Shown piece by piece: positions 7,512 to 62,350 of a DNA stretch of 64,000 nucleotides. The stretch's first letter is position 1. The number at the start of each line of letters is the position of its first letter. This DNA is from Octopus sinensis (taxonomy: Eukaryota): positions 40,436,464 to 40,500,463 of the forward strand of contig NC_043011.1 of the NCBI RefSeq assembly GCF_006345805.1. Direction: 5' to 3'. Below the pieces are notes generated by a model that was not told the DNA's origin, made no database searches, and worked only from the letters and a program-made list of their open reading frames with translations. Made by a program: the position numbers and the translations under genes.

Positions 7512-7564
<53 letters not shown>

Positions 7565-7672
7565 ATAAATATTAGGGAATAAATCCAATTTACAGGGAAA
7601 ATCAGATTTATGATTGAATCCAATTTTATAGTATTTCTTTGTTGATTTGCAAAATAGTGGTTTTAGCTCTAA

Positions 7673-7703
<31 letters not shown>

Positions 7704-7981
7704 ATTAATTAATAAGGGTGAGAGAATTAGATACTAATTTAATAGTATATCTATTCTACATCAAGTGGCCTGTGCTCCGAGAACCTGGATTATTATAATA
7801 TTTTATATATATTATAATATTTTTACAAAATAAATATAAGAGAGTGGTCACTATATGGCTCACTCTAGCAGCAGTTAATCCAATAGGTTTCAACCACAAA
7901 AATACATGTTTCCCATGAAAGTCAGTACGATTGTTAGCTCACACGGACAGAGCAAATAAAAAATAACAAAAATACAGATTA

Positions 7982-8063
7982 TTTTGGGACAATTGTTTCG
8001 CTATTAATGAATTAAATGTAATTTTACTTACAAAAAAATCCACTTGTAGCTCCTCAGCCAAAA
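7982..8063 (-). ncRNA. type I hammerhead ribozyme (array 1 left arm; also near 8522, 9056, 9587, 10120)
   Basis: UUUUGG-CUGAGGA-GCUA[hairpin]UAGC-GAAAC-AAUU-GUC^CCAAAA; all core nucleotides canonical. Confidence 0.88.
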
Positions 8064-11000
8064 CTATCTGGATGAAATCCACTCAATCAATCACACGCCA
8101 GATTTTATCATAACGATAAATACGCGTGTGGTTCAATTGATTACATCCGACGTTAAATTCAAATGCCCCAACCAACAGCGCGCCAAATTTTCACGGAAAA
8201 CAAATACAGCATTTAGAAATAAATGCAGCATAATTATAATTAATAATAAGGGTGAGAGAATTAGATACTAATTTAATAGTATATTCTATTCTACACCAAG
8301 TGGCCTAGTGCTCCGAGAAACCTGGATTATTATAATATTTTATAATATATTATAATATTTTTACAAAATAAATATAAGAGAGTGGTCACTATATGGCTCA
8401 CTCTAGCACCAGTTAATCTAATAGGTTTCACACACACAAAAATACATGTTTCCCATGAAAGTCAGTACGATTGTTAGCTCACACGGACAGGGCAAATAAA
8501 AAATAACAAAAATACAGATTATTTTGGGACAATTGTTTCGCGCTATTAATGAATTAAATGTAATTTTACTTACAAAAAAATCCCACTGTAGCTCCTCAGC
8601 CAAAACTATCTGGATGAAATCCACTCAATCACACGCCAGATTTTATCATAACGATAAATACGCGTGTGGTTCAATTGATTACATCCGACGTTATAATTCA
8701 AATGCCCCAACCAACAGCGCGCCAAATTTTCACGGAAAACAAATACAGCATTTAGAAATAAATGCAGCATAATTATAATTATTAATAAGGGTGAGAGAAT
8801 TAGATACTAATTTAATAGTTAATCTATTCTACACCAAGTGGCCTAGTGCTCGCGAGAAACCTGGATTATTATAATATTTTATAATATATTATAATTTTTT
8901 ACAAAATAAATATAAGAGAGTGGTCACTATATGGCTCACTCTAGCACCAGTTAATCCAATAGGTTTCAACCACAAAAATACATGTTTCCATGAAAGTCAG
9001 TACGATTGTTAGCTCACACGGACAGGGCAAATAAAAAATAACAAAAATACAGATTATTTTGCGACAATTGTTTCGCTATTAATGAATTAATGTAATTTTA
9101 CTTACAAAAAAATCCACTTGTAGCTCCTCAGCCAAAACTATCTGGATGAAATCCACTCAATCACACGCCAGATTTTATCATAACGATAAATACGCGTGTG
9201 GTTCAATTGATTACATCCGACGTTATAATTCAAATGCCCCAACCAACAGCGCGCCAAATTTTCACGGAAAACAAATACAGCATTAGAAATAAATGCAGCA
9301 TAATTATAATTAATTAATAAGGGTGAGAGAATTAGATACTAATTTAATAGTATATCTATTCTACACCAAGTGGCCTAGTGCTCCGAGAAACCTGGATTAT
9401 TATAATATTTTATAATATATTATAATATTTTTACAAAATAAATATAAGAGAGTGGTCACTATATGGCTCACTCTAGCACCAGTTAATCCAATAGGTTTCA
9501 ACCACAAAAATACATGTTTCCCATGAAAGTCAGTACGATTGTTAGCTCACACAGGACAGGGCAAATAAATAACAAAAATACAGATTATTTTGGGACAATT
9601 GTTTCGCTATTAATGAATTAAATGTAATTTTACTTACAAAAAAATCCACTTGTAGCTCCTCAGCCAAAACTATCTGGATGAAATCCACTCAATCACACGC
9701 CAGATTTTATCATAACGATAAATACGCGTGTGGTTCAATTGATTACATCCGACGTTATAATTCAAATGCCCCAACCAACAGCGCGCCAAATTTTCACGGA
9801 AAACAAATACAGCATTTAGAAATAAATGCAGCATAATTATAATTAATTAATAAGGGTGAGAGAATTAGATACTAATTTAATAGTATATCTATTCTACACC
9901 AAGTGGCCCGTGCTCCGAGAACCTGGATTATTATAATATTTTATATATATTATAATATTTTTACAAAATAAATATAAGAGAGTGGTCACTATATGGCTCA
10001 CTCTAGCACCAGTTAATCCAATAGGTTTCAACCACAAAAATACATGTTTCCCATGAAAGTCAGTACGATTGTTAGCTCACACGGACAGGGCAAATAAAAA
10101 ATAACAAAAATACAGATTATTTTGGGACAATTGTTTCGCTATTAATGAATTAAATGTAATTTTACTTACAAAAAAATCCACTTGTAGTTCCTCAGCCAAA
10201 ACTATCTGGATGAAATCCACTCAATCACACGCCAGATTTTATCATAACGATAAATACGCGTGTGGTTCAATTGATTACATCCGACGTTATAATTCAAATG
10301 CCCCAACCAACAGCGCGCCAAATTTTCACGGAAAACAAATACAGCATTTAGAAATAAATGCAGCATAATTATAATTAATTAATAAGGGTGAGAGAATTAG
10401 ATACTAATTTAATAGTATAATCTATCTACACCAAGTGCCTATTAACTGGTGCTAGAGTGAGCCATATAGTGACCACTCTCTTATATATTTGTAAAAATAT
10501 TATAATATATTATAATATTATAATAATCCAGGTTTCTCGGAGCACTAGGCACTTGGTGTGTAGAATAGATATACTATTAAATTAGTATCTAATTCTCTCA
10601 CCCTTATTAATTAATTTAATTATGCTGCATTTATTTCTAAATGCTGTATTTGTTTTCGTGAAAATTTGGCGCGCTGTTTGTTGGGGCATTTGAATTATAA
10701 CGTCGGATGTAATCAATTGAACCACACGCGTATTTATCGTTATGATAAAATGGGCGTGTGATTGAGTGGATTTCATCCAGATAGTTTTGGCTGAGGAGCT
10801 ACAAGTGGATTTTTTTGTAAGTAAAATTACATTTAATTCATTAATAGCGAAACAATGTCCAAAATAATCTGTATTTTTGTTATTTTTTATTTGCCCTGTC
10901 CGTGTGAGCTAACAATCGTACTGACTTTCATGGGAAACATGGATTTTGTGGTTGAAACCTATTGGATTAACTGGTGCTAGAGTGAGCCATATAGTGACCA

Positions 11001-12374
11001 CTCTCTTATAATTTATTTTGTAAAAATATTATAATATATTATAAAATATTATAATAATCCAGGTTTCTCGGAGCATTAGGCCACTTGGTGTAGAATAGAT
11101 ATACTATAAATTAGTATCTAATTCTCTCACCCTATTAATTAATTATAATTATGCTGCATTTATTTTAATGCTGTATTTGTTTTCCGTGAAAATTTGGCGC
11201 GCTGTTGGTTGGGGCATTTGAATTATAACGTCGGATGTAATCATTGAACCACACGCGTATTTATCGTTATGATAAAATCTGGCGTGTGATTGAGTGGATT
11301 TCATCCAGATAGTTTTGGCTGAGGAGCTACAAGTGGATTTTTTTGTAAGTAAAATTACATTTAATTCATTAATAGCGAAACAATTGTCCAAAATAATCTG
11401 TATTTTTGTTATTTTTTATTTGCCCTGTCCGTGTGAGCTAACAATCGTACTGACTTTCATGGGAAACATGTATTTTGTGTGGTTGAAACCTATTGGATTA
11501 ACTGGTGCTAGAGTGAGCCATATAGTGACCACTCTCTTATATTTATTTTGTAAAAATATTATAATAATATAAAATATTATAATAACCAGGTTTCTCGGAG
11601 CACTAGGCCACTTGGTGTAGAATAGATATACTATTAAATTAGTATCTAATTCTCTCACCCTTATTAATTAATTATAATTATGCTGCATTTATTTCTAAAT
11701 GCTGTATTTGTTTTCCGTGAAAATTTGGCGCGCTGTTGGTTGGGGCATTTGAATTATAACGTCGGATGTAATCAATGAACCACACGCGTATTTATCGTTA
11801 TGATAAAATCTGGCGTGTGATTGAGTGGATTTCATCCAGATAGTTTTGGCTGAGGAGCTACAAGTGGATTTTTTTGTAAGTAAAATACATTTAATTCATT
11901 AATAGCGAAACAATTGTCGCAAAATAATCTGTATTTTTGTTATTTTTTATTTGCCCTGTCCGTGTGAGCTAACAATCGTACTGACTTTCATGGGAAACAT
12001 GTATTTTTGTGGTTGAAACCTTTGGATTAACTGGTGCTAGAGTGAGCCATATAGTGACCACTCTCTTATATTTATTTTGTAAAAATATTATAATATATTA
12101 TAAAATATTAAATAATCCAGGTTTCTCGGAGCACTAGGCCACTTGGTGTAGAATAGATATACTATTAAATTAGTATCTAATTCTCTCACCCTTATTAATT
12201 AATTATAATTATGCTGCATTTATTTCTAAATGCTGTATTTGTTTTCCGTGAAAATTTGGCGCGCTGTTGGTTGGGGCATTTGAATTATAACGTCGGATGT
12301 AATCAATTGAACCACACGCGTATTTATCGTTATGGTAAATCTGGCGTGTGATTGAGTGGATTTCATCCAGATAG

Positions 12375-12456
12375 TTTTGGCTGAGGAGCTACAAGTGGAT
12401 TTTTTTGTAAGTAAAATTACATTTAATTCATTAATAGCGAAACAATTGTCCCAAAA
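12375..12456 (+). ncRNA. type I hammerhead ribozyme (array 1 right arm; also near 10785, 11313, 11844, 12906, 13437)
   Basis: TTTTGG CTGAGGA GCTA...TAGC GAAAC AATT GTC CCAAAA; stem I extends by CAGAT/ATCTG. Confidence 0.88.
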
Positions 12457-13671
12457 TAATCTGTATTTTTGTTTTTTTATTTGCCCTGTCCGTGTGAGCT
12501 AACAATCGTACTGACTTTCATGGGAAACATGTATTTTTGTGGTTGAAACCTTTTGGATTAACTGGTGCTAGAGTGAGCCATATAGTGACCACTCTCTTAT
12601 ATTTATTTTGTAAAAATATTATAATATATTATAAAATATTATAAAATCCAGGTTTCTCGGAGCACTAGGCCACTTGGTGTAGAATAGATATACTATTAAT
12701 TAGTATCTAATTCTCTCACCCTTATTAATTAATTATAATTATGCTGCATTTATTTCTAAATGCTGTATTTGTTTTCCGTGAAAATTTGGCGCGCTGTTGG
12801 TTGGGGCATTTGAATTATAACGTCGGATGTAATCAATTGAACCACACGCGTATTTATCGTTATGGTAAAATCTGGCGTGTGATTGAGTGGATTTCATCCA
12901 GATAGTTTGGGCTGAGGAGCTACAAGTGGATTTTTTTGTAAGTAAAATTACATTTAATTCATAATAGCGAAACAATTGTCCCAAAATAATCTGTATTTTT
13001 GTTATTTTTTATTTGCCCTGTCCATGTGAGCTAACAATCGTACTGACTTTCATGGGAAACATGTATTTTTGTGGTTGAAACCTATTGGATTAACTGGTGC
13101 TAGAGTGAGCCATATAGTGACCACTCTCTTATATTTATTTTGTAAAAATATTATAATATATTATAAAATATTATAATAATCCAGGTTTCTCGGAGCACTA
13201 GGCCACTTGGTGTAGAATAGATATACTATTAAATTAGTATCTAATTCTCTCACCCTTATTAATTAATTATAATTATGCTGCATTTATTTCTAAATGCTTA
13301 TTTGTTTTCCGTGAAAATTTGGCGCGCTGTTGGTGGGGCCTTTGAATTATAACGTCGGATGTAATCAATTGAACCACACGCGTATTTATCGTTATGATAA
13401 AATCTGCGTGTGATTGAGTGGATTTCATCCAGATAGTTTTGGCTGAGGAGCTACAAGTGGATTTTTTTGTAAGTAAAATTACATTTAATTCATTAATAGC
13501 GAAACAATTGTCGCCAAAATAATCTGTATTTTTGTTATTTTTTATTTGCCCTGTCCGTGTGAGCTAACAATCGTACTGACTTTCATGGGAAACATGTATT
13601 TTGGTGGTTGAAACCTATTGGATTAACTGGTGCTAGAGTGAGCCATATAGTGACCACTCTCTTATATTTAT

Positions 13672-13705
<34 letters not shown>

Positions 13706-14589
13706 ATATAATATATATATATATATGTATATGGATATGGATATGATATTATATAAATGTGTAGAGGTAACAGATAGTAGTAATTTGCATTCACAGACAG
13801 TTCAACTGTCATGCCATGAAAATTAACGGAAATTACCATGTGCTCTTCTAGAAAAAAGGAAAGTAAACTATGACTTGATTTTAATTTTAATTTAATTTTA
13901 TTAATACCTCCTTTTTTTATCTCTACATATTCAATTTTAGATCATTTTTTTGATAAGGTTTTTCAAAAACCGAAATATGTAAAACGTAACCAAAACATTC
14001 TTCCTTAATATATTTATTTAAAGGGAAATTAAAATGTTCCCAATTTTAAAAATGTAGCATTTTCGTTCTTCTTTTTCATATATATATATAAGAAATAATT
14101 GATAGAGAATGTAGAATATACTGGAAACTTATTTATCACGACGGTTGTTTCTAGACATCCTGCGCAACTCTCTTCCGCATTGATTGTTTCTACTATACTC
14201 AACCTGCACTGTGGAATTCCTAACGTAGATCCAGCGGCGATTGTGCAGTTACCGTGGATGACGCCTGCTAGCCATAAACAGTGAACGTGCTTTGCCGGCA
14301 TACATCTAGGGACATACTAAAACGCAGTTTAAATTTAAAATGTAAATTTAAACTTTAATTATAACACACACTCACAGACACGCACACATTTATATATATA
14401 GATATAAGAGAACAAAATATGAACATACAGTTGCAAGGTATCACATACTCAATATTTTTATATACCACATCGAAGTGACAACAAGATCATATAAATATAT
14501 CTGGAAGTCAGGAAGATACGGATGGTAAAATTTTATAGTGATTTGGTGAAGACGGCTTCTCCAGAACGAGATGGAAGAAAATATGTATG

Positions 14590-15250: not shown

Positions 15251-15639
15251 TCACTCACTCACTCACGTTCGTAGGTATAGTGAAGCAGAGGGTTGCACAA
15301 TTCACGTATTGAGTCGACAAAAACATATTTGGTTAATTAAATTTAGACCCGTGTTGGAAATAAAAGTTATTAGCTATCATTAGTAATAATTCTCGTCTAA
15401 AAAGAACTCTCCGAAATGCAAATTGAATATAATTTCTATAGGATTATGTAGTGGTGTGGGAGATTGATCTTGGGCAAGTGTAGGGATTATGAGTGACATG
15501 TTTCTAATTTATTCAGCCACTTCAGTTTTATTCTTACTAGAAAAATTTCTAGAAACAGTGAAAATATTCAAAAAAAAATTAATAAAAATCTATTATATAA
15601 ATTATCTTCAAAAGAAGATTAGCAAACACCTGTTGAACT

Positions 15640-16126
15640 ATTTACATTTGACGGATATTTGTCCTCATCTTGTTTGTCGGGAGACCGTACATGTGTGGTG
15701 GTTTATCGTAGTGTCAAGTCAGTTGACTGTATTTCATTGGTGTAAAGTGATCCTTAATCAAGATCTGTGACAACTTCCTCTCTGTTTTCAGAGATGGGTC
15801 TTTCTTTACTTTGCTGTAGCTACCATCACTTATAAGACTTGCCAAGTTTTCCGAGCAGCCATACTTGTTCATCACCAATGTAGCATTTCCTTTGTCTGAC
15901 AACTCGAAAAACTTGGCAAGTCTTATAAGTGATGGTAGCTACAGCAAAGTAAAGAAAGACCCATCTCTGAAAACAGAGAGGAAGTTGTCACAGATCTTCA
16001 TCAAGAACAAGGGTCACTTAACACCAATGAAATATAGACAACTGACTCGACACTACACTAAACTACCTCACATGTACGGTCTCCCAAACAAACAAGATAA
16101 GGAGAAATATCCGTCAAATGTAAATA
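15640..16126. mobile_element. inverted pair of Penelope-like RT N-terminal fragments
   Basis: Minus: DKGNATLVMNK...LISDGSYSKVKKDPSLKTERKL. Plus: LISDGSY...KLPHMYGLP. DKG and P.xYGLPK are PLE RT motifs. Arms 15640-15850 and 15910-16126. Confidence 0.8.
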
Positions 16127-16334
16127 ATCTAAATAATGTACATAATTCCTCATCTCTTAAATATTGAACTGTATTACACCTGTTGGAAGTAAATTTTTGT
16201 GTAGGCGCGTTTCAGTATTCTCAGCTTTTGAAACCCACCTGTTTTAAGGTGTGTGTATACATACACATGCCGTGCACACACATGCGTGCATACACACATA
16301 CATATATCTATATACATGTGTGCATGTGTGGATG

Positions 16335-16365
<31 letters not shown>

Positions 16366-16420
16366 TCAGGGTGAGTACTTGATAATTGTAAGCACCTGTA
16401 TATACCGTTTATAAAACAAA

Positions 16421-16582
16421 ATGATGCCAAGGATTCAGCGGTACATATGTTTCGGGCCTTTATTAGACGGATTTATAACAATGCATAATGTGTGTCTATG
16501 GCCTTAGACACACATTATGCATTGTTATAAATCCGTCTAATAAAGGCCCGAAACATATGTACCGCTGAATCCTTGGCATCAT
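16421..16582. repeat. perfect ~78-bp-arm hairpin containing the 3' half of a hammerhead
   Basis: ATGATGCCAAGG...TGTGTCTA / TAGACACA...CCTTGGCATCAT; each arm carries GGCCC-GAAAC-ATAT-GTA. Confidence 0.85.
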
Positions 16583-16605
16583 GTTTTTATTTTGATTAAT
16601 TTATT

Positions 16606-16868: not shown

Positions 16869-17091
16869 ATTGTATAAAAGATCGTGGGTAAGGCCAAAAC
16901 AATGCTAAGTAAATGCAAGGTAAATCACCAGAAAACAAATATGTGAATTAATATAGACTTACCTTATATTCAGTATTTCGGGGTTATTGAATACAAGATA
17001 AGTCTACATTAATTCACATATTTGTTTTCTTGTGATTTCCCTTGCATTTACTTCGCATTGTTTTGGCCTTACCCACGATCCTTTATACAAT
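16869..17091. repeat. inverted repeat, ~93-bp arms, ~37-bp spacer
   Basis: 16869-16961 is the reverse complement of 16999-17091 with a few mismatches. Confidence 0.85.
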
Positions 17092-24155: not shown

Positions 24156-25108
24156 GCAAACTTTTACTTTTCTTAATTTAGAATAATAACATCTGGAGAA
24201 CATTTCCAGAAAGTGTAAATTTATCGATTTTTTTTCAAGCATATATCCTTCGCCATCTGTAAGAAGAATAAGTAACAACAACGAGGAGGCGGTTTATTTA
24301 TAATTTCTTTCGAAAGACGTAGAGCGAAGGAAAGTAACATTCTTTTGTTCTCTCAGTTCTCTTCAGTTTTGAAGAGCGAATACAATAGCAGAAGATGCAA
24401 AGATTGAATGACACAATCGAAACGATTTTGTTTATGCTTTTGTTTTTCAGGAGGTTTGAGAATATTAAAGAAAGCTATAAAACAATAAAGATTAAACTGA
24501 ACGTAAAGAAGTGGGCTACGATGACAACGATGACGACGACGATGAGGAGGACGACAAAGACGCGGACGACAACAACGATGGCGAAGGCAACGACAACGAT
24601 GATGATGATGGTGACAAAACGAGGCTGTACAAATTCATTAGGAAACATCTACCGACGCATATCTAATAGTATACACCATGCTTCGATATATCAAATACAA
24701 ACAATCACACATATACACTTATAAAGAAGTACACACACAGGCACGATTTTTGCATGGTTATATATGTATAAAGAAAACTCCGAATGACCCGTCCTTGTTT
24801 TCTTTGTATCCTCTATCTGGATGTTTTGTTGTCCCTTTCTTGTATCACCTAACTGTCTGGATGTTTTGCGTTCTTGTTCCATTTTGTATTATATATATAT
24901 ATATATATATATTATGTGAAATAGAAAGATGAATAATCTTGTAGCAGATTAATCAAAAGTTTAACCGATACCTTGGTAGCAAAAATCACAGCAGAAGACA
25001 GCACAGTTGGAGGTACAACCATATGGTGTTGCAACCGTGCGTTGGTGCGGATAATTGAATTTTAATATTATTAGTGAAATGAAGAAATGGAGCTGAACGA
25101 AATCGTTT

Positions 25109-25201
25109 TATTTCATTCTACACGTGTTTCGAAAGGCACAATTTACCAAAATCCGACTGAATAATGAGACCATATTGTGTCTTTCTCTTCAGGAAGAAAT
25201 A
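25109..25201 (-). ncRNA. type I hammerhead ribozyme
   Basis: Reverse complement of 26314-26406. Confidence 0.9.
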
Positions 25202-26313
25202 GGAAATCCGTTGGAAAAAACAAAAACAGAACAGAGGCGGAGCAAAACAAATCGAACTAGGCTCCTAAGAGCCCATGGCCAAACTGTTTATCAGTGTATA
25301 TTGAGAACGGGTGGTGGGTGCGTTGAAGAATTTAACGGGTCAGGCAGCGGTCATTCCTGTGGGTGAGGGCACGAGGTGTGTAGATGTTCTTTGTGACCGA
25401 GAGTAAAGTTCTGACTATTTAAAGAATATTGGATGTATTATATGGGGCGAGTCAAAATCTACTTAGAGACATGTGTGTGTTTACTGTTCTATATATGTGT
25501 GCTGGCGCGAGTTGGTAAGAAGCGCTATTTTCTGGTCACTGCTGAGAACTCCGTCAAGGGGTAGAAAACATTTTTTGTGTACGTGTGTGCGTTTGATCGC
25601 GCGGCTGTCAGTTGTTAAACAGCTCTACACAATGGTCACTGCAGTAAAAACCGTCGGGCGGCAGAAAAATATTTTATGTTTTATGTGTGCGTGTGTTCGT
25701 CTAATCATGCCTTGTCAAAGAGACCCCCCGTCGTCAAAAACAAAGCCCCATTCATCTCACAGGAGTAGTGAGATGAGCATGATTAGACGAACATGATTGA
25801 CAAGGCATGATTAGACGAACACACGCACACATAAAACATAAAATATTTTTCTGCCGCCCGACGGTTTTTACTGCAGTGACCATTGTGTAGAGCTGTTTAA
25901 CAACTGACAGCCGCGCGATCAAACGCACACACGTACACAAAAAATGTTTTCTACCCCTTGACGGAGTTCTCAGCAGTGACCAGAAAATAGCGCTTCTTAC
26001 CAACTCGCGCCAGCACACATATATAGAACAGTAAACACACACATGTCTCTAAGTAGATTTTGACTCGCCCCATATAATACATCCAATATTCTTTAAATAG
26101 TCAGAACTTTACTCTCGGTCACAAAGAACATCTACACACCTCGTGCCCTCACCCACAGGAATGACCGCTGCCTGACCCGTTAAATTCTTCAACGCACCCA
26201 CCACCCGTTCTCAACATACACCGATAAACAGTTTGGCCATGGGCTCTTAGGAGCCTAGTTCGATTTGTTTTGCTCCGCCTCTGTTCTGTTTTTGTTTTTT
26301 CAAACGGATTTCC

Positions 26314-26406
26314 TATTTCTTCCTGAAGAGAAAGACACAATATGGTCTCATTATTCAGTCGGATTTTGGTAAATTGTGCCTTTCGAAACACGTGTAGAAT
26401 GAAATA
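26314..26406 (+). ncRNA. type I hammerhead ribozyme
   Basis: TATTTCTTC-CTGAAGA-GAAAGACACAAT...ATTGTGCCTTTC-GAAAC-ACGT-GTA^GAATGAAATA. Confidence 0.9.
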
Positions 26407-26454
26407 AAACGATTTCTGTTCAATCTTCGTTCAGCTCCATTTCTTCATTTCACT

Positions 26455-26499
<45 letters not shown>

Positions 26500-30348: not shown

Positions 30349-30705
30349 AAGCGACAAGGGAAATGTATGGAGTTTGGATGCCAGCGAAAATAGCTGGGAG
30401 GCAATTTAAAAATCGATCTTTAAAGCAGAAATGTCAATATAACTAAAATAGCTATTTCTTATTATGAATAATTGTTATAACAAAAATAATAGGCTGATAG
30501 GCAAGGAGAAAGGTTTACATGAATAAAATAAATAATGAAAAATAGAGGAAACAAAGAGAAAAGAAGAGAAAGAAAAAGAAGAAACTCTAACCAGCTTTCT
30601 ATAGTATTCTTATACAAGGCTTTAATGCATTCTCAACGGCTTCTTGCGTTGTAATGATTTCAAATGTAGACTTAGAGGCCGTGGATTTTTTGTCGTACAG
30701 TACTT

Positions 30706-31212
30706 CTCTATGGTTGTGAAACGTGGCCTATGCGGGTGGTCGATCAACGAAGGCTCGAAGTCTTCGACAATGACTGCCTCCGGTGCATTCTTCGCTGCCA
30801 TCGGGTGGATCGAGTTCCCACCGCCAATCTCCGACTTCGCCTGTCTCTGCGGCCCCTTCCATCTGTCCTTCTGCAACGGCGCTTGCGGTGGTTTGGCCAT
30901 GCATGTAGGCATCCGGTGGGTGAACTGAGCCGTGATGTCCTTCTCCCAACTCCACTTCCCAACTGGCGGAAACGCGCGGGCGGGCAGCTGAAGACCTGGG
31001 TTACGACGATCAAGGAGGACCTCTCTGTGCTCACGGGACCGCAGGTGGTCGGCCTGCGCCAGTGGAACCGTGACTGGCTCGCTATCTCTAGTGAACTGGC
31101 GCACGACCATCGTGCGTGGGCTGCCATGGTTCGAGATGCCTCGAGGATGGTAGAAGAAGCCGACTCAACCCGCCCAGGGTGAATGTCGCCACAAGTACAA
31201 GTACAAGTAAGT
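30706..31212 (+). mobile_element. RTE-clade LINE 3' end, 5'-truncated
   Basis: LYGCETWP...CLRCIL...RRLRWFGHACR...W C-terminus with open frame and stop at 31182, then (CAAGTA)3 tail. Confidence 0.9.
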
Positions 31213-34785: not shown

Positions 34786-35093
34786 ATATATATTATGTAT
34801 GTATGTATATATATATATATATACATATACTATATATATATACATTTTATATATATGTATATATATGTCTATATATGTATATATATGTGTATATATATTA
34901 TATATATATATATTATATAAAAGGGCTTAGTAAAATAAATTACTTTGCCGCATACTGAACTCATTAGAAATAGCAGCTAAAAAACTTTTTTAAGGCTATT
35001 TCTAATACTTAAAGAAAATCTCTCTCATATATAGTGTTTGCATAATTTAACTCACAAAAGTTTGGGGGTAATGACATCGAAAAATCAAATGCT

Positions 35094-35163
35094 AAGGTTA
35101 TTCGAGAACGTACGTTTCAAGATTAGTCAAAACAACATTCTATCATCGGCTCGGAAATTCCTT
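35094..35163 (-). ncRNA. variant type I hammerhead (array 2 left arm; also near 35635, 36181, 36721)
   Basis: Reverse complement of the motif at 37429. Confidence 0.6.
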
Positions 35164-37428
35164 GGTTGGATTTGGAAACACTGAAAATAAGAACATACCC
35201 TCTCGAAGATCTGCTCCCAACTAACAGTGCCAACAAATTCAAAATAAGCAAGCGAAGAATCTCTGTTCTCCCCTTTCCACCAGCGTGGGTTAAAATCATC
35301 AAACTCTATGCTTATTTCGGTAAAGTCCGAAGCATTAATCAGAGGGAGATTAATTATAATTTCAACAATTGAGGGCAAAATTAATTAATTATTAATCAAT
35401 TTCACCAAGTGTTCAGTATGCAAAGGGACCATTCAAGGCGAATTCAAATTATTACATTATATAAAAGGGCTTAGTAAAATAAATTACTTTGCCGCATACT
35501 GAACTCATTAGAAATAGCAGCTAAAAAACTTTTTTAAGGCTATTTAATACTTAAAGAAAATCTCTCTCATATATAGTGTTTGCATAATTTAACTCACAAA
35601 AGTTTGGGGGTAATGACATCGAAAAATCAAATGCTAAGGTTATTCGAGAACGTACGTTTCAAGATTAGTCAAAACAACATTTCTATCATCGGCTCGGAAA
35701 TTCCTTGGTTTGGATTTGGAAACACTGAAAATAAGAACATACCCTCTCGAAGATCTGCTCCAACTAACAGTGCCAACAAATTCAAAATAAGCAAGCGAAG
35801 AATCTCTGTTCTCCCCTTTCCACCAGCGTGGGTTAAAATCATCAAACTCTATGCTTATTTCGGTAAAGTCCGAAGCATTAATCAGAGGGAGATTAATTAT
35901 AATTTCAACAATTGAGGGCAAAATTAATTAATTATTAATCAATTTCACCAAGTGTTCAGTATGCAAAGGGACCATTCAAGGCGAATTCAAATTATTACAT
36001 TATATAAAAGGGCTTAGTAAAATAAATTACTTTGCCGCATACTGAACTCATTAGAAATAGCAGCTAAAAAACTTTTTTAAGGCTATTTCTAATACTTAAA
36101 GAAAATCTCTCTCATATATAGTGTTTGCATAATTAAATCACAAAAGTTTGGGGGTAATGACATCGAAAAATCAAATGCTAAGGTTATTCGAGAACGTACG
36201 TTTCAAGATTAGTCAAAACAACATTTCTATCATCGGCTCGGAAATTCCTTGGTTTGGATTTGGAAACACTGAAAATAAGAACATACCCTCTCGAAGATCT
36301 GCTCCCAACTAACAGTGCCACAAATTCAAAATAAGCAAGCGAAGAATCTCTGTTCTCCCCTTTCCACCAGCGTGGGTTAAAATCATCAAACTCTATGCTT
36401 ATTTCGGTAAAGTCCGAAGCATTAATCAGAGGGAGATTAATTATAATTTCAACAATTGAGGGCAAAATAATTAATTATTAATCAATTTCACAAGTGTTCA
36501 GTATGCAAAGGGACCATTCAAGGCGAATTCAAATTATTACATTATATAAAAGGGCTTAGTAAAATAAATTACTTTGCCGCATACTGAACTCATTAGAAAT
36601 AGCAGCTAAAAAACTTTTTTAAGGCTATTTCTAATACTTAAAGAAAATCTCTCTCATATATAGTGTTTGCATAATTTAACTCACAAAAGTTTGGGGGTAA
36701 TGACATCGAAAATCAATGCTAAGGTTATTCGAGAACGTACGTTTCAAGATTAGTCAAAACAACATTTCTATCATCGGCTCGGAAATTCCTTGGTTTGGAT
36801 TTGGAAACACTGAAAATAAGAACATACCCTCTCGAAGATCTGCTCCCAACTAACAGTGCCAACAAATTCAAAATAAGCAAGCGAAGAATCTCTGTTCTCC
36901 CCTTTCCACCAGCGTGGGTTAAAATCATCAAACTCTATGCTTATTTCGGTAAAGTCCGAAGCATTAATCAGAGGGAGATTAATTATAATTTCAACAATTG
37001 AGGGCGCAAACACTATATATGAGAGAGATTTTCTTTAAGTATTAGAAATAGCCTTAAAAAAGTTTTTTAGCTGCTATTTCTAATGAGTTCAGTATGCGGC
37101 AAAGTAATTTATTTTACTAAGCCCTTTTATATAATGTAATAATTTGAATTCGCCTTGAATGGTCCCTTTGCATACTGAACACTTGGTGAAATTGATTAAT
37201 AATTAATTAATTTTGCCCTCAATTGTTGAAATTATAATTAATCTCCCTCTGATTAATGCTTCGGACTTTACCGAAATAAGCATAGAGTTTGATGATTTTA
37301 ACCCACGCTGGTGGAAAGGGGAGAACAGAGATTCTTCGCTTGCTTATTTTGAATTTGTTGGCACTGTTAGTTGGGAGCAGATCTTCGAGAGGGTATGTTC
37401 TTATTTTCAGTGTTTCCAAATCCAAACC

Positions 37429-37499
37429 AAGGAATTTCCGAGCCGATGATAGAAATGTTGTTTTGACTAATCTTGAAACGTACGTTCTCGAATAACCTT
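37429..37499 (+). ncRNA. variant type I hammerhead (array 2 right arm; also near 37969, 38510, 39054)
   Basis: AAGG..TTCCGAG-CCGATGA-TAGA...TCTT-GAAAC-GTAC-GTT^CTCGAA..CCTT; U4C core and GUU triplet. Confidence 0.6.
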
Positions 37500-40400
37500 A
37501 GCATTTGATTTTTCGATGTCATTACCCCCAAACTTTTGTGAGTTAAATTATGCAAACACTATATATGAGAGAGATTTTCTTTAAGTATTAGAAATAGCCT
37601 TAAAAAAGTTTTTTAGCTGCTATTTCTAATGAGTTCAGTATGCGGCAAAGTAATTTATTTTACTAAGCCCTTTTATATAATGTAATAATTTGAATTCGCC
37701 TTGAATGGTCCCTTTTGGTGAAATTGATTAATAATTAATTAATTTTGCCCTCAATTGTTGAAATTATAATTAATCTCCCTCTGATTAATGCTTCGGACTT
37801 TACCGAAATAAGCATAGAGAGTTTGATGATTTTAACCCACGCTGGTGGAAAGGGGAGAACAGAGATTCTTCGCTTGCTTATTTTGAATTTGTTGGCACTG
37901 TTAGTTGGAGCAGATCTTCGAGAGGGTATGTTCTTATTTTCAGTGTTTTCCAAAAACCAAGGAATTTCCGAGCCGATGATAGAAATGTTGTTTTGACTAA
38001 TCTTGAAACGTACGTTCTCGAATAACCTTAGCATTTGATTTTTCGATGTCATTACCCCCAAACTTTTGTGAGTTAAATTATGCAAACACTATATATGAGA
38101 GAGATTTTCTTTAAGTATTAGAAATAGCCTTAAAAAAGTTTTTTAGCTGCTATTTCTAATGAGTTCAGTATGCGGCAAAGTAATTTATTTTACTAAGCCC
38201 TTTTATATAATGTAATAATTTGAATTCGCCTTGAATGGTCCCTTTGCATACTGAACACTTGGTGAAATTGATTAATAATTAATTAATTTTGCCCTCAATT
38301 GTTGAAATTATAATTAATCTCCCTCTGATTAATGCTTCGGACTTTACCGAAATAAGCATAGAGTTTGATGATTTTAACCCACGCTGCTGGTGGAAAGGGG
38401 AGAACAGAGATTCTTCGCTTGCTTATTTTGAATTTGTTGGCACTGTTAGTTGGGAGAGCAGATCTTCGAGAGGGTATGTTCTTATTTTCAGTGTTTCCAA
38501 ATCCAAACCAAGGAATTTCCGAGCCGATGATAGAAATGTTGTTTTGACTAATCTTGAAACGTACGTTCTCGAATAACCTTAGCATTTGATTTTTCGATGT
38601 CATTACCCCCAAACTTTTGTGAGTTAAATTATGCAAACACTATATATGAGAGAGATTTTCTTTAAGTATTAGAAATAGCCTTAAAAAAGTTTTTTAGCTG
38701 CTATTTCTAATGAGTTCAGTATGCGGCAAAGTAATTTATTTTACTAAGCCCTTTTATATAATGTAATAATTTGAATTCGCCTTGAATGGTCCCTTTGCAT
38801 ACTGAACACTTGGTGAAATTGATTAATAATTAATTAATTTTGCCCTCAATTGTTGAAATTATAATTAATCTCCCTCTGATTAATGCTTCGGACTTTACCG
38901 AAATAAGCATAGAGTTTGATGATTTTAACCCACGCTGGTGGAAAGGGGAGAACAGAGATTCTTCGCTTGCTTATTTTGAATTTGTTGGCACTGTTAGTTG
39001 GGAGCAGATCTTCGAGAGGGTATGTTTATTTTCAGTGTTTCCAAATCCAAACCAAGGAATTTCCGAGCCGATGAAGAAATGTTGTTTTGACTAATCTTGA
39101 AACGTACGTTCTCGAATAACCTTAGCATTTGATTTTTCGATGTCATTACCCCCAAACTTTTGTGAGTTAAATTATGCAAACACTATATATGAGAGAGATT
39201 TTCTTTAAGTATTAGAAATAGCCTTAAAAAAGTTTTTTAGCTGCTATTTCTAATGAGTTCAGTATGCGGCAAAGTAATTTATTTTACTAAGCCCTTTTAT
39301 ATAATGTAATAATTTGAATTCGCCTTGAATGGTCCCTTTGCATACTGAACACTTGGTGAAATTGATTAATAATTAATTAATTTTGCCCTCAATTGTTGAA
39401 ATTATATATATATATTATATATATAATATATATATATATACATATATATATATGAAAGAAAGTTATTTTATTCCATGTGCGTAAAAATATATGAGCAAAG
39501 AAGTTGAAAACGCACTGGCAGTCTTTTATCTGTTTTATTTTTAATGGCTTAACCGGTTTCACACATTTTTCTGAGTTTCAAAATTTGAGATAGAAAGACG
39601 TGCGGCTATGGCGCAGCTATTTTGCATTTGACTGAAGTTCGAAAATTCTCTTTTGTTTTTATAGAGAGCTCATGACTCAAATTAATATTTGTTTAGAATA
39701 CACTTTGGCTGATACGCATGTTAGCCTAAACTTAGAGTGCAAAAAATATTGTTATATTATATTAACGCACGGACGTAGTTGGGAACATGCAAACATTTCT
39801 AAGGCTAATCACGTGATAATTCTCTACTGATTAAAAAAAAATATATCCATTTAATGGATATTAATTTAAGTCATTTTGTCTCTACAAATACGCGAATTTT
39901 CGAACTCCAGTCAGAAGCAAGACATTCGCGGCATAGCCCCCCCCCCCACGTCTTTCCATCTCACTTAATTTAAGAAAATCAGAAAAATCTATGAAACGGG
40001 TTGAGCATTCAAAAACCAACCATTTCAAAAATTCCCACTGAATTTCTCCCTTCAGGAAGGAGGAGTTAATACAAACTGGCCAACCCTGGAATTTACAGAT
40101 ACTAGGAAAACTAAGAAATAACACCATCTTAGTTGTTTGATGAAAATATTATGGTATGTGTTATGGAATGCTTCTGTCATTCCATTAGTAATAGACACTG
40201 GATTGATACACAGCCATTTTTGTAAAGACACTGAAAAGTTCCCTGTAACGATAGACAGCCATGTTCAAGAAAATAGCAGTGCTATTAGAATCAGTAAATT
40301 ATTGTTAGTGCATTCTCATACAGCATTTGATCATGAAAATTCTTATTGATCTTCAACATCTTCGTTAATCATGAATACGTTTATGCATGTTGTCAAAGAC

Positions 40401-44984: not shown

Positions 44985-45084
44985 NNNNNNNNNNNNNNNN
45001 NNNNNNNNNNNNNNNNNNNNNNNNNNNNNNNNNNNNNNNNNNNNNNNNNNNNNNNNNNNNNNNNNNNNNNNNNNNNNNNNNNNN
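44985..45084. other. assembly gap (100 N)
   Basis: Run of N. Confidence 1.
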
Positions 45085-48636: not shown

Positions 48637-49344
48637 TTGGGTTGGCAACTAAGTTCCCGCCGTTTTTTAAAATTTTGGAATCTAAGAATCTAAGAATACA
48701 TTATTGATTGACTAATTAATCAATAATGTATTCACGTTTGTTGTTTACAACTTCTTTCCAACGTTCAACTAGATTTTCAATACTTCGTTGGTAGAAATCA
48801 CCCGATTTCACCGCGAAAAATTGATCCAACCAAGCTCTCAATTCTGCACCAGTATTGAACGAAACTCCGCGCATAGCATTGCTTGTGTCCATGAGTTGAG
48901 CAGTGACGAGCAAGCAAACCAGCGGAGATTGTGGCTCGATGATTTTTGTTGTCGTGACTTAAAGCATGCGGAACCCATGCTCCATATTTCTGAACCTTTC
49001 CCATCGAGGTGCGTCTTTGAGGTCAAAATTTCCATTTTTGAACTTAGCATACCAATCACGATCGGTTCTTTCAGCTATGGCACCCTCTCCATACACAACA
49101 GAAATGTTGCGAGCAGCTTTTGCAGCCTTAGAACCTTGATTAAAAGCAAAAAGGAGGTGTCGAAAATGCTCATTTTTCTTAACTGGATATTCCATTTTAA
49201 TGATCTGAAAATAAAAGAAAATTAACTAAAATTAACTAGAAGAAAAAACAAAATAGATTCCAAAATAATTCAAAAATAGAATTCTCGAAAAAAAAAAAGA
49301 TTCCAAAATTTAAAAACACGGCGGGCACCTTATTGCAAACCCAA
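48637..49344 (-). mobile_element. internally deleted mariner (mellifera-like)
   Basis: TIRs TTGGGTT(G/T)GCAA..AGG/AAGT.CCCGCCG in TA context; NEHFRHLL...KFKNGNFDL.D.PR, WVPHAL, IENLVERW. Confidence 0.9.
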
Positions 49345-49428
49345 ATATATAATGTATTATATTTATGTATGTATGTGTATATATATATATATATATATTT
49401 ACACACACACACATACATACATACATAC

Positions 49429-49487
<59 letters not shown>

Positions 49488-49606
49488 CGTTTGACTTTAT
49501 ATATATATATATATATATACACATAGATACATACATATATACACACACATATATATATATATATATTATATATATACATATACATATCTATATATACATA
49601 TATATA

Positions 49607-49644
<38 letters not shown>

Positions 49645-49669
49645 ATTATATATGCAAAACTATTGTGTA

Positions 49670-49735
<66 letters not shown>

Positions 49736-49741
49736 TATATA

Positions 49742-49894
49742 TTGGGTTTGCAACTAGGTGCCCGCCGTGTTTTTAAATTTTGGAATCTTTTTGTTTTTTT
49801 TTCGAGAATTCTATTTTTGAATTATTTTGGAATCTATTTTGTTTTTTCTTCTAGTTAATTTTAGTTAATTTTCTTTCATTTTCAGATTATTAAA
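49742..49894 (+). mobile_element. second copy of the same mariner 5' end, inverted
   Basis: Near-exact reverse complement of 49197-49344. Confidence 0.85.
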
Positions 49895-57082: not shown

Positions 57083-58305
57083 GATATCAAGAAAGTTCTT
57101 GCGGAATTTTTAATATTGGTTTCAAATTAATTTTCGTTAAATTACTTTGACTTTATATATCATTTTAAAACCGGTTTTTCGCTCTATCTAATCGTGTTAC
57201 TTTTTGAATAATTAGGCCATTTTGTCCTGGACGTTGAATACAACATGGACAAAAAGCAAATTCGCACAATTTTCTTATTCCAGTTCAACCTAGGCCGAAA
57301 AGCTGCTGAAACAGCTCGCGTGCGCTTGGCTCAGGAACCACTAATGAACGTACAGCACAATGGTGGTTCAAGAAATTTCATAGCGGTGACGAGAGTCTTG
57401 AAGATGATAAGCCTAGTGGTTGGCCATCGGATGTTTACAACGATCAACTAAGAGCCTTAGTGGAAGCCAATCCACGCCCAACTGTTCGAGAGCTTGCTTC
57501 TGAATTAGACGTAACGTATACAATTTCCAACCATTTGAAAGAAATTGGAAAAGCAAAAATACTTGAGAAATGGGTGCCGCACGAATTGAGCGACAGCCCC
57601 CCCCCCAAAAAAAAATGCCGTTTTGAAGTGCCGTCTTCCCTTCTTTTACGCGACAAGAACGACCTGTTTCTCGACCGGATTGTGACTTGCGATGAAAAGT
57701 GGATTCTTTACGACAACCGGCGACGCTCAGCTCAGTGGTTGGACGCCGATAAAGCTTCACGGCACTTTCCGAAGCCGAAGTTGCACCAAAAGAAAGTCGT
57801 GGTGAGTGTTTAATGGTCTGTGGCTGGTCTCATCCATTGACAGCTTTTTGGATCCAGGCGATACCATTACGGCGGAGAAGTACTGTCAGCAAATGGATGA
57901 AATGCATAAGAAACTCCGACAACAACAGTCAGCAATGGTCAATAGAAAAGGACCAATTCTTCTCCACGACAACGCTCGGCCGCACGTCGCACAACTGACC
58001 TTGCAGAATTTCAACGAATTTGGCCACGAAACTCTGCCTCATCTGCCATACTCACCAGACCTCTCGCCTACCGACTACCACTTTTTCAAGCATCTCTACA
58101 TCTTCCTGTGTGAGAAATGCTTCAAAAACCAAGACGATGCCAAACACGCCTTCAACGACTTCATCGGCAGCAGAATGCAGGATTTTACACGTTGGCAAAA
58201 GTGTGTTGATTCAGTGTTTATTTCGATTAATAACATTTTGTTGAGCCGAGATATGTGCATCTAAATTTAAAGGTTAAAAATGCAAGAACTTTCTTGACAA
58301 CCTAA
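57079..58305 (+). mobile_element. near full-length decayed mariner (cecropia/Hsmar1-like) in (TA)n
   Basis: TIRs TTGGGATATCAAGAAAGTTCTTGC / GCAAGAACTTTCTTGACAACCTAA. Confidence 0.93.
57245..58230 (+). pseudogene. mariner transposase, frameshifted
   Basis: [49 protein letters not shown]; spread over several frames and third catalytic D lost. Confidence 0.92.
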
Positions 58306-60606: not shown

Positions 60607-61345
60607 CTATCCACTACAGTCCTTGTAGCGCTTCATTTGTGTCCCCCTGTTGCAGTGGCCAGTTGTGAGCTCACCGTACATGATGATATGGGGTAGGCGG
60701 TGGTCTTTCATTCTGCCAACGAGCCCTACCCAACGCAGTCCTGTCTCAAGTAAAATGGCTTCCAGACTTGTGACCTTTGTTCGCTCAAGGACCTCAGTGT
60801 TGACGATGTAGCCACTCCAGTAAATGTTGAGGATGGTACAGTGGCGGCGTTGGTGAAAATCTTCAAGGAGCCTGAGATGACAGCAGTAAGGGATCCTGTA
60901 CTCAGAGCCATATAGCAGCATCGTGAGAACGATAGTCCTGTAGACGCTAACTTGTGTGCTAATCTTAAGATGCTTGTTGTTACACATGCGCTTGTACAGT
61001 CTGCCAAATGCTTTGTTAGTCTTTGCAAGTCTGTTGTCAGTTTCTTTGTCGATACTCGCATCTGAAGAAATGGTACATCCAAGATAAGTTAACTGCTGTA
61101 CCGACTTCAGTTCTGTTTCCGCAAAGTTGATGTGGGGCGAGCTGTACTCTTCCTGAGGAGCCCGTTGGTGTAGGACTTCAGTCTTTTTCAACCTTACTTC
61201 CAGCACGAAGAGCTGGACGACCTCTGCAAAGCAGGATGTGATGCGCTGCAGGGCTCTTTCTGCGTGTGCGACAAGTGTCGCATCATCTGAAAAGAGGAGG
61301 TGGTGGATCGGTTGTTCTTGAGTTTTGGAAACGACTGCCATCTAG
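60607..61345 (-). mobile_element. RTE-clade LINE, RT C-terminal part
   Basis: LLFSDD, KKTEV, TYLGCTIS, LLYGSE, LRWVGLVGRMKDHRLP, RYKD. Confidence 0.9.
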
Positions 61346-61349
61346 ACGG

Positions 61350-62125
61350 TATCTAATGTAGACGCTTTACGAAGAAAAAGAACTAGGATTGTTTTGACGA
61401 AAACGATTGACTGATCCAGGAATTATTAAAGAAGACGTCTGCCCACCAAGTACACCTGGCACAACCGCCCTGCCCAGAGAAGAAAGTGGCGTTTCGCCAA
61501 ACGCGAAGCTTTCTGCAGCGCAAACTCCCTGAAGTTCAGAATAAGTGGTAAACCAATTGCACATGGAGAACCCAGTTGTGTTCTGACTCTGGCGACTATA
61601 GGGGATTCTACAAAGCTTTCAAGGCAGTTTGCGGCCGAACACATCAAGTCTTGAGTCCCCTACGCAGCTCAGATGGCCAGGCGCTTCTCACAGACACAGC
61701 ATCCATTCTCAACCGTTGGTCTGAAAACTTTCAGGCCCTCTTCACTGCAAACCGAGTTGTTCAGCAAAACGCAATTCTCCACATCCAGCAGCATCCATTC
61801 AGCGTGGAACTAGATGAGCTTCCAGCCCTGGAAGAGACCAAATTTTCCATAGAATGGCTGAAGAGTAGAAAGACAGCAGGAGTCGATGGCATACCACCAG
61901 AGATATGGAGACATGGAGATCCTGTCATACATGCTAAACTCCACGATCTCCTTGTCGCATGCTGGAAACAGGGCAAGCTGCCACAAGATCTCCACAATTC
62001 TGTCATCATTAGACTGTACAAAAACAAAGAGGGAAAGTCAGACTGCTCAAACTACCGGGGGATCACCCTGCCTTCCAGTGCAGGAAAAGTTCTTGCAAGA
62101 TTACTCCGCAACAGACTTGCTCAGT
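61350..62125 (+). mobile_element. RTE-clade LINE, linker and RT N-terminal part, inverted relative to neighbour
   Basis: FDEND, LNRWSENF, KTAGVDGIPPEIW, LYKNKEGKSDCSNYRGITL. Confidence 0.9.
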
Positions 62126-62350
62126 CGACATACATACATACATACATTTAGTTAATAAACTAATTCTTGATTTCATGTAGTCTTTTTTTTTGCCATTGTT
62201 AATGTTTTGTCTAACTCCTGGTTACATACAACAGATCGAATAGATATGTACACAAATTCATTGCACATACATACATGCATATATATATATATGTTTTCAT
62301 TGTTTGATTTGCCTAATAGTGGTTTTATCTCTAATTTAATATAATATAAT

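What the first reader, a model, noticed from the sequence alone, without database searches (positions are those of the whole stretch)
7701..13672. 6-kb palindromic tandem array of a ~533-bp unit, each unit carrying a hammerhead ribozyme
Seen: about 5 units, an abrupt strand switch at 10441/10442, then about 6 inverted units, with (TA)n on both flanks and 11 HHR motifs (CUGAGGA...GAAAC-AAUU-GUC) but no credible ORF. Known: Penelope-like elements carry minimal type I HHRs in their pseudo-LTRs, and metazoan non-LTR retrozymes are tandem HHR repeats that give circular RNAs. Inference: this is a young retrozyme-like insertion copied in rolling-circle fashion from a circular or multimeric RNA. The multi-unit palindrome and the large unit size go beyond the head-to-tail arrays I know of.
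Basis: partly seen in the sequence, partly recalled or inferred. Interest (0 to 1): 0.92.

Follow-up and report, generated by a model that had tools for sequence, protein, structure and literature searches.

The report
Two-armed hammerhead retrozyme insertion
A young non-coding parasite of Penelope-like transposons, made of 535-base units that each carry a self-cleaving RNA motif, inserts as two back-to-back arms, each anchored at its own fixed start site, which shows how such palindromic insertions are probably built.

Summary
The array is in the sequence as described: 5.1 antisense units (7700-10441), 6.0 sense units (10442-13672), 11 type I hammerhead cores and (TA)n flanks. It is one copy of a dispersed young family; a second family with the same build lies at 34909-39406. 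In 42 of 42 inverted loci of the two families the arms point away from the junction. One arm always ends at fixed site A, the other at fixed site B, 100-130 nt further on. An autonomous Penelope-like element (PLE) of this genome follows the same rule (7 of 7). The two arms share their locus haplotype, and 93 of 101 arms run through the cleavage site. Best reading: a non-LTR retrozyme moved by a PLE enzyme that primes on both target strands, probably on a circular monomer. Retrozymes, units of this size, inverted PLE copies and the 'tail' are all published; I found no paper on multi-unit twin arms or the one-A-one-B rule. Cleavage, circular RNA, the partner PLE and reads across 10441 are not shown. 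The scan noted a similar, ribozyme-free case in another genome (e1-7881736).

The parts
7664..7699 (.). Left (TA)n target flank
   Evidence: a target-site duplication cannot be read in pure TA
7700..10441 (-). Left arm: 5.1 units whose sense strand is the - strand; sense 3' end at 7700 = fixed site B (unit position 291); 5' truncation at unit position 219
7700..7830 (-). About 130-nt 'tail' between site A (159-161) and site B (291), present at the end of this arm only; contains the hairpin that precedes site B
10441..10442 (.). Head-to-head junction, unit positions 219/109, 1-nt overlap; the same junction occurs at one other place in the genome (L022/L060)
10442..13672 (+). Right arm: 6.0 sense units; 5' truncation at unit position 109; 3' end at 13672 = fixed site A (unit position 159)
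12370..12461 (+). Representative intact type I hammerhead: stem I, CUGAGGA core at 12381, long stem II, GAAAC-AAUU-GUC, predicted cleavage after 12450
10780..13524 (+). Six hammerheads of the right arm (cores 10791, 11319, 11850, 12381, 12912, 13443; predicted cleavage after 10859, 11388, 11918, 12450, 12980, 13512)
7977..10206 (-). Five hammerheads of the left arm (cores 8057, 8599, 9131, 9663, 10195; predicted cleavage at 7988, 8528, 9063, 9594, 10126)
13673..13755 (.). Right (TA)n target flank, followed by unique DNA unlike the left flank
34909..39406 (.). Second family (546-nt unit, variant hammerhead CCGAUGA...GAAAC-GUAC-GUU), same two-arm build: antisense arm ending at A (195), junction 37005/37006 (275/66), sense arm ending at B (296)

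Best explanation
A non-autonomous Penelope-like element of the non-LTR retrozyme kind. SHOWN: a dispersed, about 98-99% identical, non-coding family inserted in (TA)n; two fixed sense 3' ends, A and B, each just 3' of a predicted hairpin; in inverted copies the arms always point away from the junction and always end one at A and one at B; both arms carry one locus haplotype; arms pass the cleavage site without a scar. INFERRED: an autonomous PLE RT/GIY-YIG protein, probably a dimer, nicks both strands of an AT-rich target. One active site starts reverse transcription at A on one target strand, the other at B on the other strand. Each copies antisense for a variable length, through several units. 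The two cDNA ends are then joined head to head by 0-4 nt microhomology or a short filler. If one side aborts, a plain head-to-tail array results. INFERRED, less sure (about 0.6): the template is a ligated circular monomer made by two hammerhead cuts in a tandem transcript, copied round and round, which makes a new mutation appear in every unit of both arms.
For: Polarity: 42 of 42 inverted loci are antisense-left/sense-right, none the other way (26 family 1, 16 family 2, out of 59 loci). This is the polarity target priming on both strands predicts. Ends: one A and one B in 42 of 42 (about 2e-13 if arms chose freely at 50:50), including L090, fetched for another reason. An autonomous 717-aa PLE of this genome has one short and one long end in 7 of 7 inverted loci. 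PAc protein cuts and extends both target strands, is predicted to be a dimer, and starts RT at two internal sites that bound the tail (PMC11167929). A 15-bp target duplication encloses both arms of L033, and 11 bp encloses L035. Junction overlaps are 0-4 nt in 22 of 25 family-1 loci, with short fillers in 3 (window read by eye). Arm haplotypes disagree in 2 of 26 and 0 of 16 loci, against 20.3 and 10.1 on shuffled pairing. Locus-private substitutions are fixed in all or nearly all units: 7 in 4 family-1 loci and 12 in 7 family-2 loci, 11 of the 19 on both arms; singletons are only 80 in 75,252 bases. The cleavage junction is exact in 133 of 133 family-2 passes and 119 of 136 family-1 passes, the rest mostly homopolymer noise. 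The only commonly variable core base is the free N7 (G 91, C 40, U 3, A 1). Circular monomers fold far better than shuffles (z -6.4 and -4.8).
Against: No autonomous PLE with sequence homology to the family-1 unit was found among about 8 young families, so the enzyme is assigned by behaviour only. No independent record spanning 10441 was seen (the tool warns that a hole proves nothing). Window units are not fully uniform: site 419 differs in 2 of 11 copies and site 104 in 2 of 10. Minor variants recur with periods of 2, 3 or 5 units in L059, L058, L025, L028 and L056, so multi-unit blocks are also duplicated, by DNA recombination, multimeric templates or assembly. The window's junction is shared with L022 although A/B are swapped, which independent twin priming would rarely give (my estimate 0.002-0.02). 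In vitro, PAc used uncleaved RNA and did not need its hammerhead (PMC11167929), and 8 of 9 Xenopus retrozymes did not cleave (Li et al. 2026). Loci were the best-scoring of 992 and 606 candidates (40 and 34 scored), so they are biased to young, long copies. Five family-1 and nine family-2 inverted loci had no informative site. Covariation in the B hairpin is not above shuffle.
Confidence: 0.75

Rival explanations
1. Same PLE twin priming, but the template is an uncleaved linear multimer read through a parent array; the hammerhead is a passenger and arrays are homogenised or lengthened afterwards at DNA level. (A variant of the best explanation that replaces only the circle step.)
For: Uncleaved RNA was the main substrate of PAc in vitro (PMC11167929). 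Periodic minor variants occur. A junction shared by two loci could be inherited through a read-through transcript. A scar-free cleavage junction fits this too.
Against: A linear multimer passes on unit-specific variants of the parent unfixed, and cannot easily fix 3-4 private substitutions in every unit of both arms (L078, L080, also L058) at a singleton rate of about 0.1%. Constraint on the catalytic core with a free N7 suggests cleavage matters.
Confidence: 0.3
2. One cDNA folds back or self-primes on an antisense template to make the head-to-head copy, and the endonuclease trims the intermediate at fixed sites (published proposals for PLE inversions and tails).
For: Proposed in PMC3846280 (self-priming on an antisense template) and PMC8557442 (tail from EN-mediated resolution). 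It explains shared haplotypes on both arms trivially. Five of 42 junctions are within 15 nt of symmetric (with L068 corrected to 506/515).
Against: 37 of 42 junctions are asymmetric by 38 nt or more, arm lengths are uncorrelated (rho 0.10, p 0.51), and neither A nor B arms are the longer (Wilcoxon p 0.35). PAc start sites match the tail ends directly (PMC11167929).
Confidence: 0.13
3. The window's palindrome is an assembly artefact (fold-back read, or a join of two loci through the repeat).
For: Consensus quality drops near the junction (95-96%). The junction equals that of L022, whose reads could have leaked in. No bridging record was seen in three contig sets.
Against: Flanks differ and match no other fetched flank. 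The junction and ends are asymmetric. Both arms share a haplotype (104A/353G/419A) not seen as a locus majority in the other 39 loci. 41 other loci follow the same rules. A true mirror-image locus (L134: same end and same flank on both sides) looks quite different. At most, the exact junction bases or the unit count may be wrong.
Confidence: 0.06
4. A DNA-level satellite or Helitron-like tandem repeat whose inversion arose after insertion (breakage and snap-back repair).
For: Tandem units, AT-rich targets, and evidence of block duplication.
Against: It does not explain fixed polarity (42 of 42), one-A-one-B ends, a conserved hammerhead, or a target duplication enclosing both arms.
Confidence: 0.03

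Closest known systems
Metazoan non-LTR retrozymes (Cervera and de la Pena 2020, PMC7229834; Li, Clavereau and Pollet 2026, bioRxiv 10.64898/2026.07.22.740005)
   Same: Non-coding, low-GC tandem units each with a canonical type I hammerhead; dispersed dimers to multimers; proposed circular RNA template and PLE mobilisation; unit length inside the 51-972 bp range.
   Different: Those papers describe head-to-tail arrays (the word 'inverted' does not occur in the main text of PMC7229834) and give no insertion ends. Li et al. link retrozymes to PLEs by co-occurrence and pLTR homology; here the link is the insertion signature, and no homologous pLTR was found. Host is probably a cephalopod, which neither study sampled in the parts I read.
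EN+ Penelope-like elements, inverted 5'-truncated copy plus 'tail' (Arkhipova et al. 2013, PMC3846280; Craig et al. 2021, PMC8557442)
   Same: Head-to-head inverted copy, tail on only one end, (TA)n targets, hammerhead upstream of the 3' ends, 5' truncation, occasional target duplication.
   Different: No ORF; both arms are multimers; tail of 130 nt (family 1) and 100 nt (family 2) against 30-40 bp in print, though autonomous PLEs in this genome have about 70 and about 150 nt.
PAc Poseidon element in vitro (Frangieh et al. 2024, PMC11167929)
   Same: Two internal RT start sites downstream of the hammerhead that bound the tail; cleavage and extension of both strands of AT-rich DNA; predicted dimer.
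   Different: They saw no difference in start site between strands and did not explain inversions; the genomic data here say the two ends of one insertion always use different sites.
Non-autonomous Chlamys elements such as MRC1 (PMC8557442)
   Same: Non-autonomous PLE derivatives with multicopy head-to-tail insertions.
   Different: The paper reports no canonical hammerhead in most Chlamys; algal host; 3' homology to autonomous partners is known there.

Membership tests
Non-LTR retrozyme | Tandem units each holding a complete type I hammerhead | tested here: met
   11 of 11 cores with stems I-III by motif and folding; several window copies have small defects as assembled
Non-LTR retrozyme | No protein-coding capacity, low GC (<45%) | tested here: met
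   One 108-aa stop-to-stop frame in one unit only; GC 0.32-0.33
Non-LTR retrozyme | Dispersed, mobile family of dimers to multimers | tested here: met
   992 candidates, 40 scored, 40 loci on many contigs; two loci proved to be duplicates by flank
Non-LTR retrozyme | Self-cleavage of the transcript | not testable with these tools
   Only indirect: conserved core with free N7
Non-LTR retrozyme | Monomeric circular RNA in vivo | not testable with these tools
   No raw RNA reads were available; contigs cannot show a circle
Rfam hammerhead families | Match to a curated covariance model | tested here: not met
   0 hits at gathering score; no hammerhead among 6 weak hits at E<=10. A long stem II is the likely reason (inference)
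Minimal PLE hammerhead (Cervera 2014) | Helix III/loop 3 absent or reduced to the core | tested here: not met
   2-bp helix III with palindromic AAUU loop is the canonical type as defined in PMC4209133; co-folding gives the dimer helix
PLE-mobilised non-autonomous element | Head-to-head inverted, 5'-truncated copy | tested here: met
   42 of 42 inverted loci head to head
PLE-mobilised non-autonomous element | Two fixed 3' ends, tail on one end only | tested here: met
   42 of 42; length 100-130 nt, not the 30-40 bp in print
PLE-mobilised non-autonomous element | AT-rich/(TA)n target, target duplication where readable | tested here: met
   Nearly all ends run into (TA)n; 15 bp at L033 and 11 bp at L035; unreadable in the window
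PLE-mobilised non-autonomous element | Sequence homology to the pLTR of an autonomous PLE | tested here: inconclusive
   No match beyond AT-rich noise in 34 PLE loci of about 8 families; each protein search scored only 59-150 of 10,000-41,000 candidates
Assembly fold-back artefact | Mirror-image junction, same end and same flank on both sides | tested here: not met
   Junction 219/109, ends B and A, unrelated flanks; compare L134

The most novel reading that the evidence does not exclude
A dimeric Penelope-like RT-endonuclease loads on one circular ribozyme RNA at two hairpin-marked start sites, one per subunit, primes each on one strand of a (TA)n target, and both subunits roll round the circle several times before their products are joined head to head. 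These arrays would then be a direct genomic record of twin-primed rolling-circle reverse transcription. That would explain the PLE tail, the inverted copy and the tandem structure in one mechanism, and would be genomic evidence that retrozyme circles are the transposition template.
Probability: 0.4. Interest if true: 0.8.

Novelty: new variant of a known kind. Interest (0 to 1): 0.55.

Why it matters
The element class is known. Two questions about it are open in print: how PLEs make tandem/inverted insertions ('still undefined features', PMC8557442), and whether retrozyme circles are really the templates (proposed, not shown, in PMC7229834). These young families give sharp, countable rules: fixed polarity, one A end and one B end, one haplotype on both arms, and passage through the cleavage site. 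Each can be tested in the existing PAc-type in vitro system with a 535-nt RNA. They also tie retrozymes to PLE enzymes by insertion signature and not only by homology. Practically, multi-kilobase palindromes of this kind are likely to be dismissed as assembly errors in mollusc genomes, and Rfam misses their ribozymes.

Tried and rejected
Rfam scans: nothing. Ligation scar at the cleavage site, expected if the RT jumped between linear monomers or crossed a modified junction: not found; the site ranks 35th of 535 and 475th of 546 positions for variation. Partner PLE: four protein searches and DNA comparison of 34 PLE loci found no homology with family 1. A 72% match to family 2 led to a third, older hammerhead family with no ORF seen in the 20 short loci cut out. 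A chimeric PLE/retrozyme insertion at L025 was rejected: about 370 nt of other DNA lies between the two, and both end at their long site. At L045 the array sits in (TA)n after a PLE 3' end, not in its pLTR. General inheritance of junctions: two other junctions tested are unique in the genome; one search was void. Sequencing runs: no RNA holder listed. Run X10 is only guessed to be RNA; 74 of its contigs lay on the unit, which shows no transcription. X1 (organism A) and X3 (organism B) hold the family in 2885 and 816 contigs, but no listed piece bridges 10441. X22 (raw DNA, organism A label) gave 2 partial reads in 1,934 Mb, unexplained. Four of 24 listed runs were laid. Hairpin covariation before site B: all 20 cells pair, one change on both sides, but 297 of 500 shuffles do as well. 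An apparent lack of 5' breakpoints inside the hammerhead in family 1 was not pursued because locus choice is biased. Earlier-findings look-ups by sequence and by genome were empty. bioRxiv supplements are closed and PMC supplements were not opened; element lists there could include these families.
Full report
Observation. The array is as described. The left arm (7700-10441) holds 5.1 units read on the - strand and the right arm (10442-13672) 6.0 units read on the + strand, between (TA)n tracts. Counting from the base after the predicted GUC cleavage site, the left arm runs from position 219 at the junction to 291 at its outer end. The right arm runs from 109 to 159. Eleven CUGAGGA cores are present. 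Folding gives stems I and II, and co-folding two copies pairs the palindromic helix III between them. By the definition in PMC4209133 (passages) this is a canonical type I hammerhead, not a minimal one. Rfam does not detect it. One 108-aa frame in one unit is the only frame of 100 aa or more inside the array.

It is a family. A search of the own genome (2.72 Gb, 13,516 contigs) gave 992 candidates, of which 40 were scored. I fetched 39 other loci at 10 kb. Two are duplicates of others by their flanks (L027 of L026, L052 of L042) and were dropped from counts. L025 was left out only. L042 and L051 each contain the whole insertion twice and were counted once. The host is probably an octopus; this is recalled from genome size and repeat content, not tested. 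A second array in the window (34909-39406) belongs to another family with a 546-nt unit and a variant hammerhead. It gave 606 candidates, 34 scored, and I fetched 20 loci.

Rules of the insertion. Of 59 loci scored (38 family 1, 21 family 2), 42 are inverted and 17 are plain head-to-tail arrays. All 42 have the antisense arm on the left and the sense arm on the right, so both sense 3' ends touch the flanks and the 5' ends meet at the junction. Sense 3' ends fall at two fixed sites: A (about 161) and B (291) in family 1, A (195) and B (296) in family 2. Every one of the 42 has one A and one B end. This includes L090, fetched for a neighbouring PLE gene. 5' breakpoints are scattered. Junctions show 0-4 nt overlap in 22 of 25 family-1 loci and short fillers in 3. 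Arm lengths are uncorrelated, and 37 of 42 junctions are far from symmetric. Where the target is not pure TA, a duplication is readable: 15 bp around both arms of L033 and 11 bp at L035. A predicted hairpin lies just 5' of both A and B in three families. The B hairpin aligns across families, but its covariation is not above shuffle.

Link to Penelope-like elements. An inverted 5'-truncated copy, a tail on one end and (TA)n targets are the known marks of EN+ PLEs (PMC8557442, passages; PMC3846280, passages). PAc protein cuts and extends both strands, is predicted to be a dimer, and starts RT at two internal sites that bound the tail (PMC11167929, parts 1-2 of 4). This genome has several young PLE families with intact 717-784 aa frames. 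Pfam found GIY-YIG in 2 of 8 frames scanned; the labels Hydra-like and Neptune-like are recalled, not tested. The 717-aa family has one short and one long end in 7 of 7 inverted loci, with a tail of about 70 nt. The 778-aa family has ends about 150 nt apart. So 100-130 nt tails are within the local range. No family was homologous to the family-1 unit, so the partner is unidentified.

Template. 93 of 101 arms run through the cleavage site, and the site shows no scar, so cleaved linear monomers are not the template. Loci differ in haplotype while units within a locus agree. The two arms disagree in 2 of 26 and 0 of 16 loci, against 20.3 and 10.1 when arms are paired at random (2000 shuffles, none as low). 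Nineteen substitutions are private to one locus and fixed in it, 11 of them on both arms, while singletons number 80 in 75,252 bases. A monomer bottleneck, most simply a circle, explains this. The window carries 104A/353G/419A on both arms. The only commonly variable core base is N7, and circular monomers fold strongly (z -6.4 and -4.8). Against a pure single-circle model: two adjacent window units carry the genome-majority bases at sites 104 and 419, and five loci show minor variants with periods of 2, 3 or 5 units. Consensus polishing could also exaggerate uniformity within a locus.

Artefact check. The flanks differ from each other and from all other fetched flanks, the ends are B and A, and the arms share a private haplotype. 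A mirror-image locus met by chance (L134) has the same end and the same flank on both sides. No independent record across 10441 was seen in the four runs laid, so the exact junction and unit count rest on the assembly. The same junction occurs at exactly one other place, L022, with A and B swapped and a haplotype one site away. Two other junctions tested are unique. Descent through a read-through RNA, gene conversion, a structural hot spot (the two breakpoints flank a predicted stem, 114-121 with 213-220) or read leakage could each explain it; I cannot choose.

Comparison and novelty. Non-LTR retrozymes are published as tandem hammerhead repeats that yield circles and are probably moved by PLEs (PMC7229834, passages and Discussion). 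Li et al. 2026 tie them to pLTRs and report units of 51-972 bp (parts 1-3 of 5). Hammerheads on opposite strands 100-700 bp apart were noted in 2014. The Octopus vulgaris repeat paper counts Penelope families and does not mention ribozymes or retrozymes in its main text (PMC13282606, passages). PMC6765202 was read in passages; pDo500 was seen in a search listing only. Ten full-text searches found no paper describing multi-unit two-armed retrozymes, the one-A-one-B rule or shared arm haplotypes; (retrozyme, inverted, tandem, palindrom) returned 0. The library lacks most subscription papers, including the 2005-2006 PLE reviews, and supplements were not seen. Verdict: it works like a PLE-mobilised element (well supported). 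It meets the sequence criteria of a non-LTR retrozyme, with cleavage and circles untested. The two-armed multimer is a new variant that makes an open mechanistic question testable. Interest 0.55.

Noticed in passing
window 34909-39406: Second two-armed array of a different young family (546-nt unit, about 99% identical genome-wide) with an unusual, invariant hammerhead: CCGAUGA core and GUU cleavage triplet. Its A-B region is about 75% like a third, older family (L102-L121).
   Followed up: yes
window 25065-26462: Another head-to-head inverted element between (TA)n tracts, with hammerhead-like motifs at 25192 (-) and 26323 (+) (CUGAAGA...GAAAC-ACGU-GUA); single-unit arms of about 700 nt.
   Followed up: partly
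window 15639-16126: Inverted fragment with a 115-aa frame (15820-16167) that resembles the region upstream of a PLE RT (recalled; no Pfam hit).
   Followed up: partly
window 16415-16588 and 16869-17091: Two short palindromes next to (TA)n; the first contains the 3' half of a hammerhead (GAAAC-AUAU-GUA) on both strands.
   Followed up: no
window 7562-7663: A short element directly beside the left flank, also seen in L106; probably an older insertion into the same (TA)n, suggesting repeated use of these tracts.
   Followed up: partly
window 49196-49894: Inverted repeats of about 140 nt pointing at a 400-nt (AT)n tract; type unknown.
   Followed up: no
L022 (G000:C11:35847755) and window 10441: Identical inversion junction at two unlinked loci, with A and B ends swapped; the only two in the genome.
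   Followed up: partly
L059, L058, L025, L028, L056: Minor variants repeat every 2, 3 or 5 units, pointing to multimeric circles, block duplication or assembly duplication.
   Followed up: partly
L122-L131; L132, L135; L034, L101: Three young autonomous PLE families (717, 778 and about 760 aa frames) with hammerheads; the 717-aa one has a CCGAAGA core and GUU triplet like family 2, making it or a relative a candidate partner.
   Followed up: partly
L084, L085, L099: PLE copies with an upstream 436-481 aa frame before the RT frame; the L085 family has a UUGAAAA-type core and a tail of about 30 nt whose end resembles site B of family 1 over 10 nt.
   Followed up: no
L134: Perfect mirror-image PLE locus with the same end and same flank on both sides; probably an assembly fold-back or a DNA-level palindrome.
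   Followed up: no
window 57310-58264, 60607-62151, 30676-31182: Decayed mariner-like transposase and LINE RT fragments (recalled from the translations; not searched). An N gap lies at 44985-45084.
   Followed up: no
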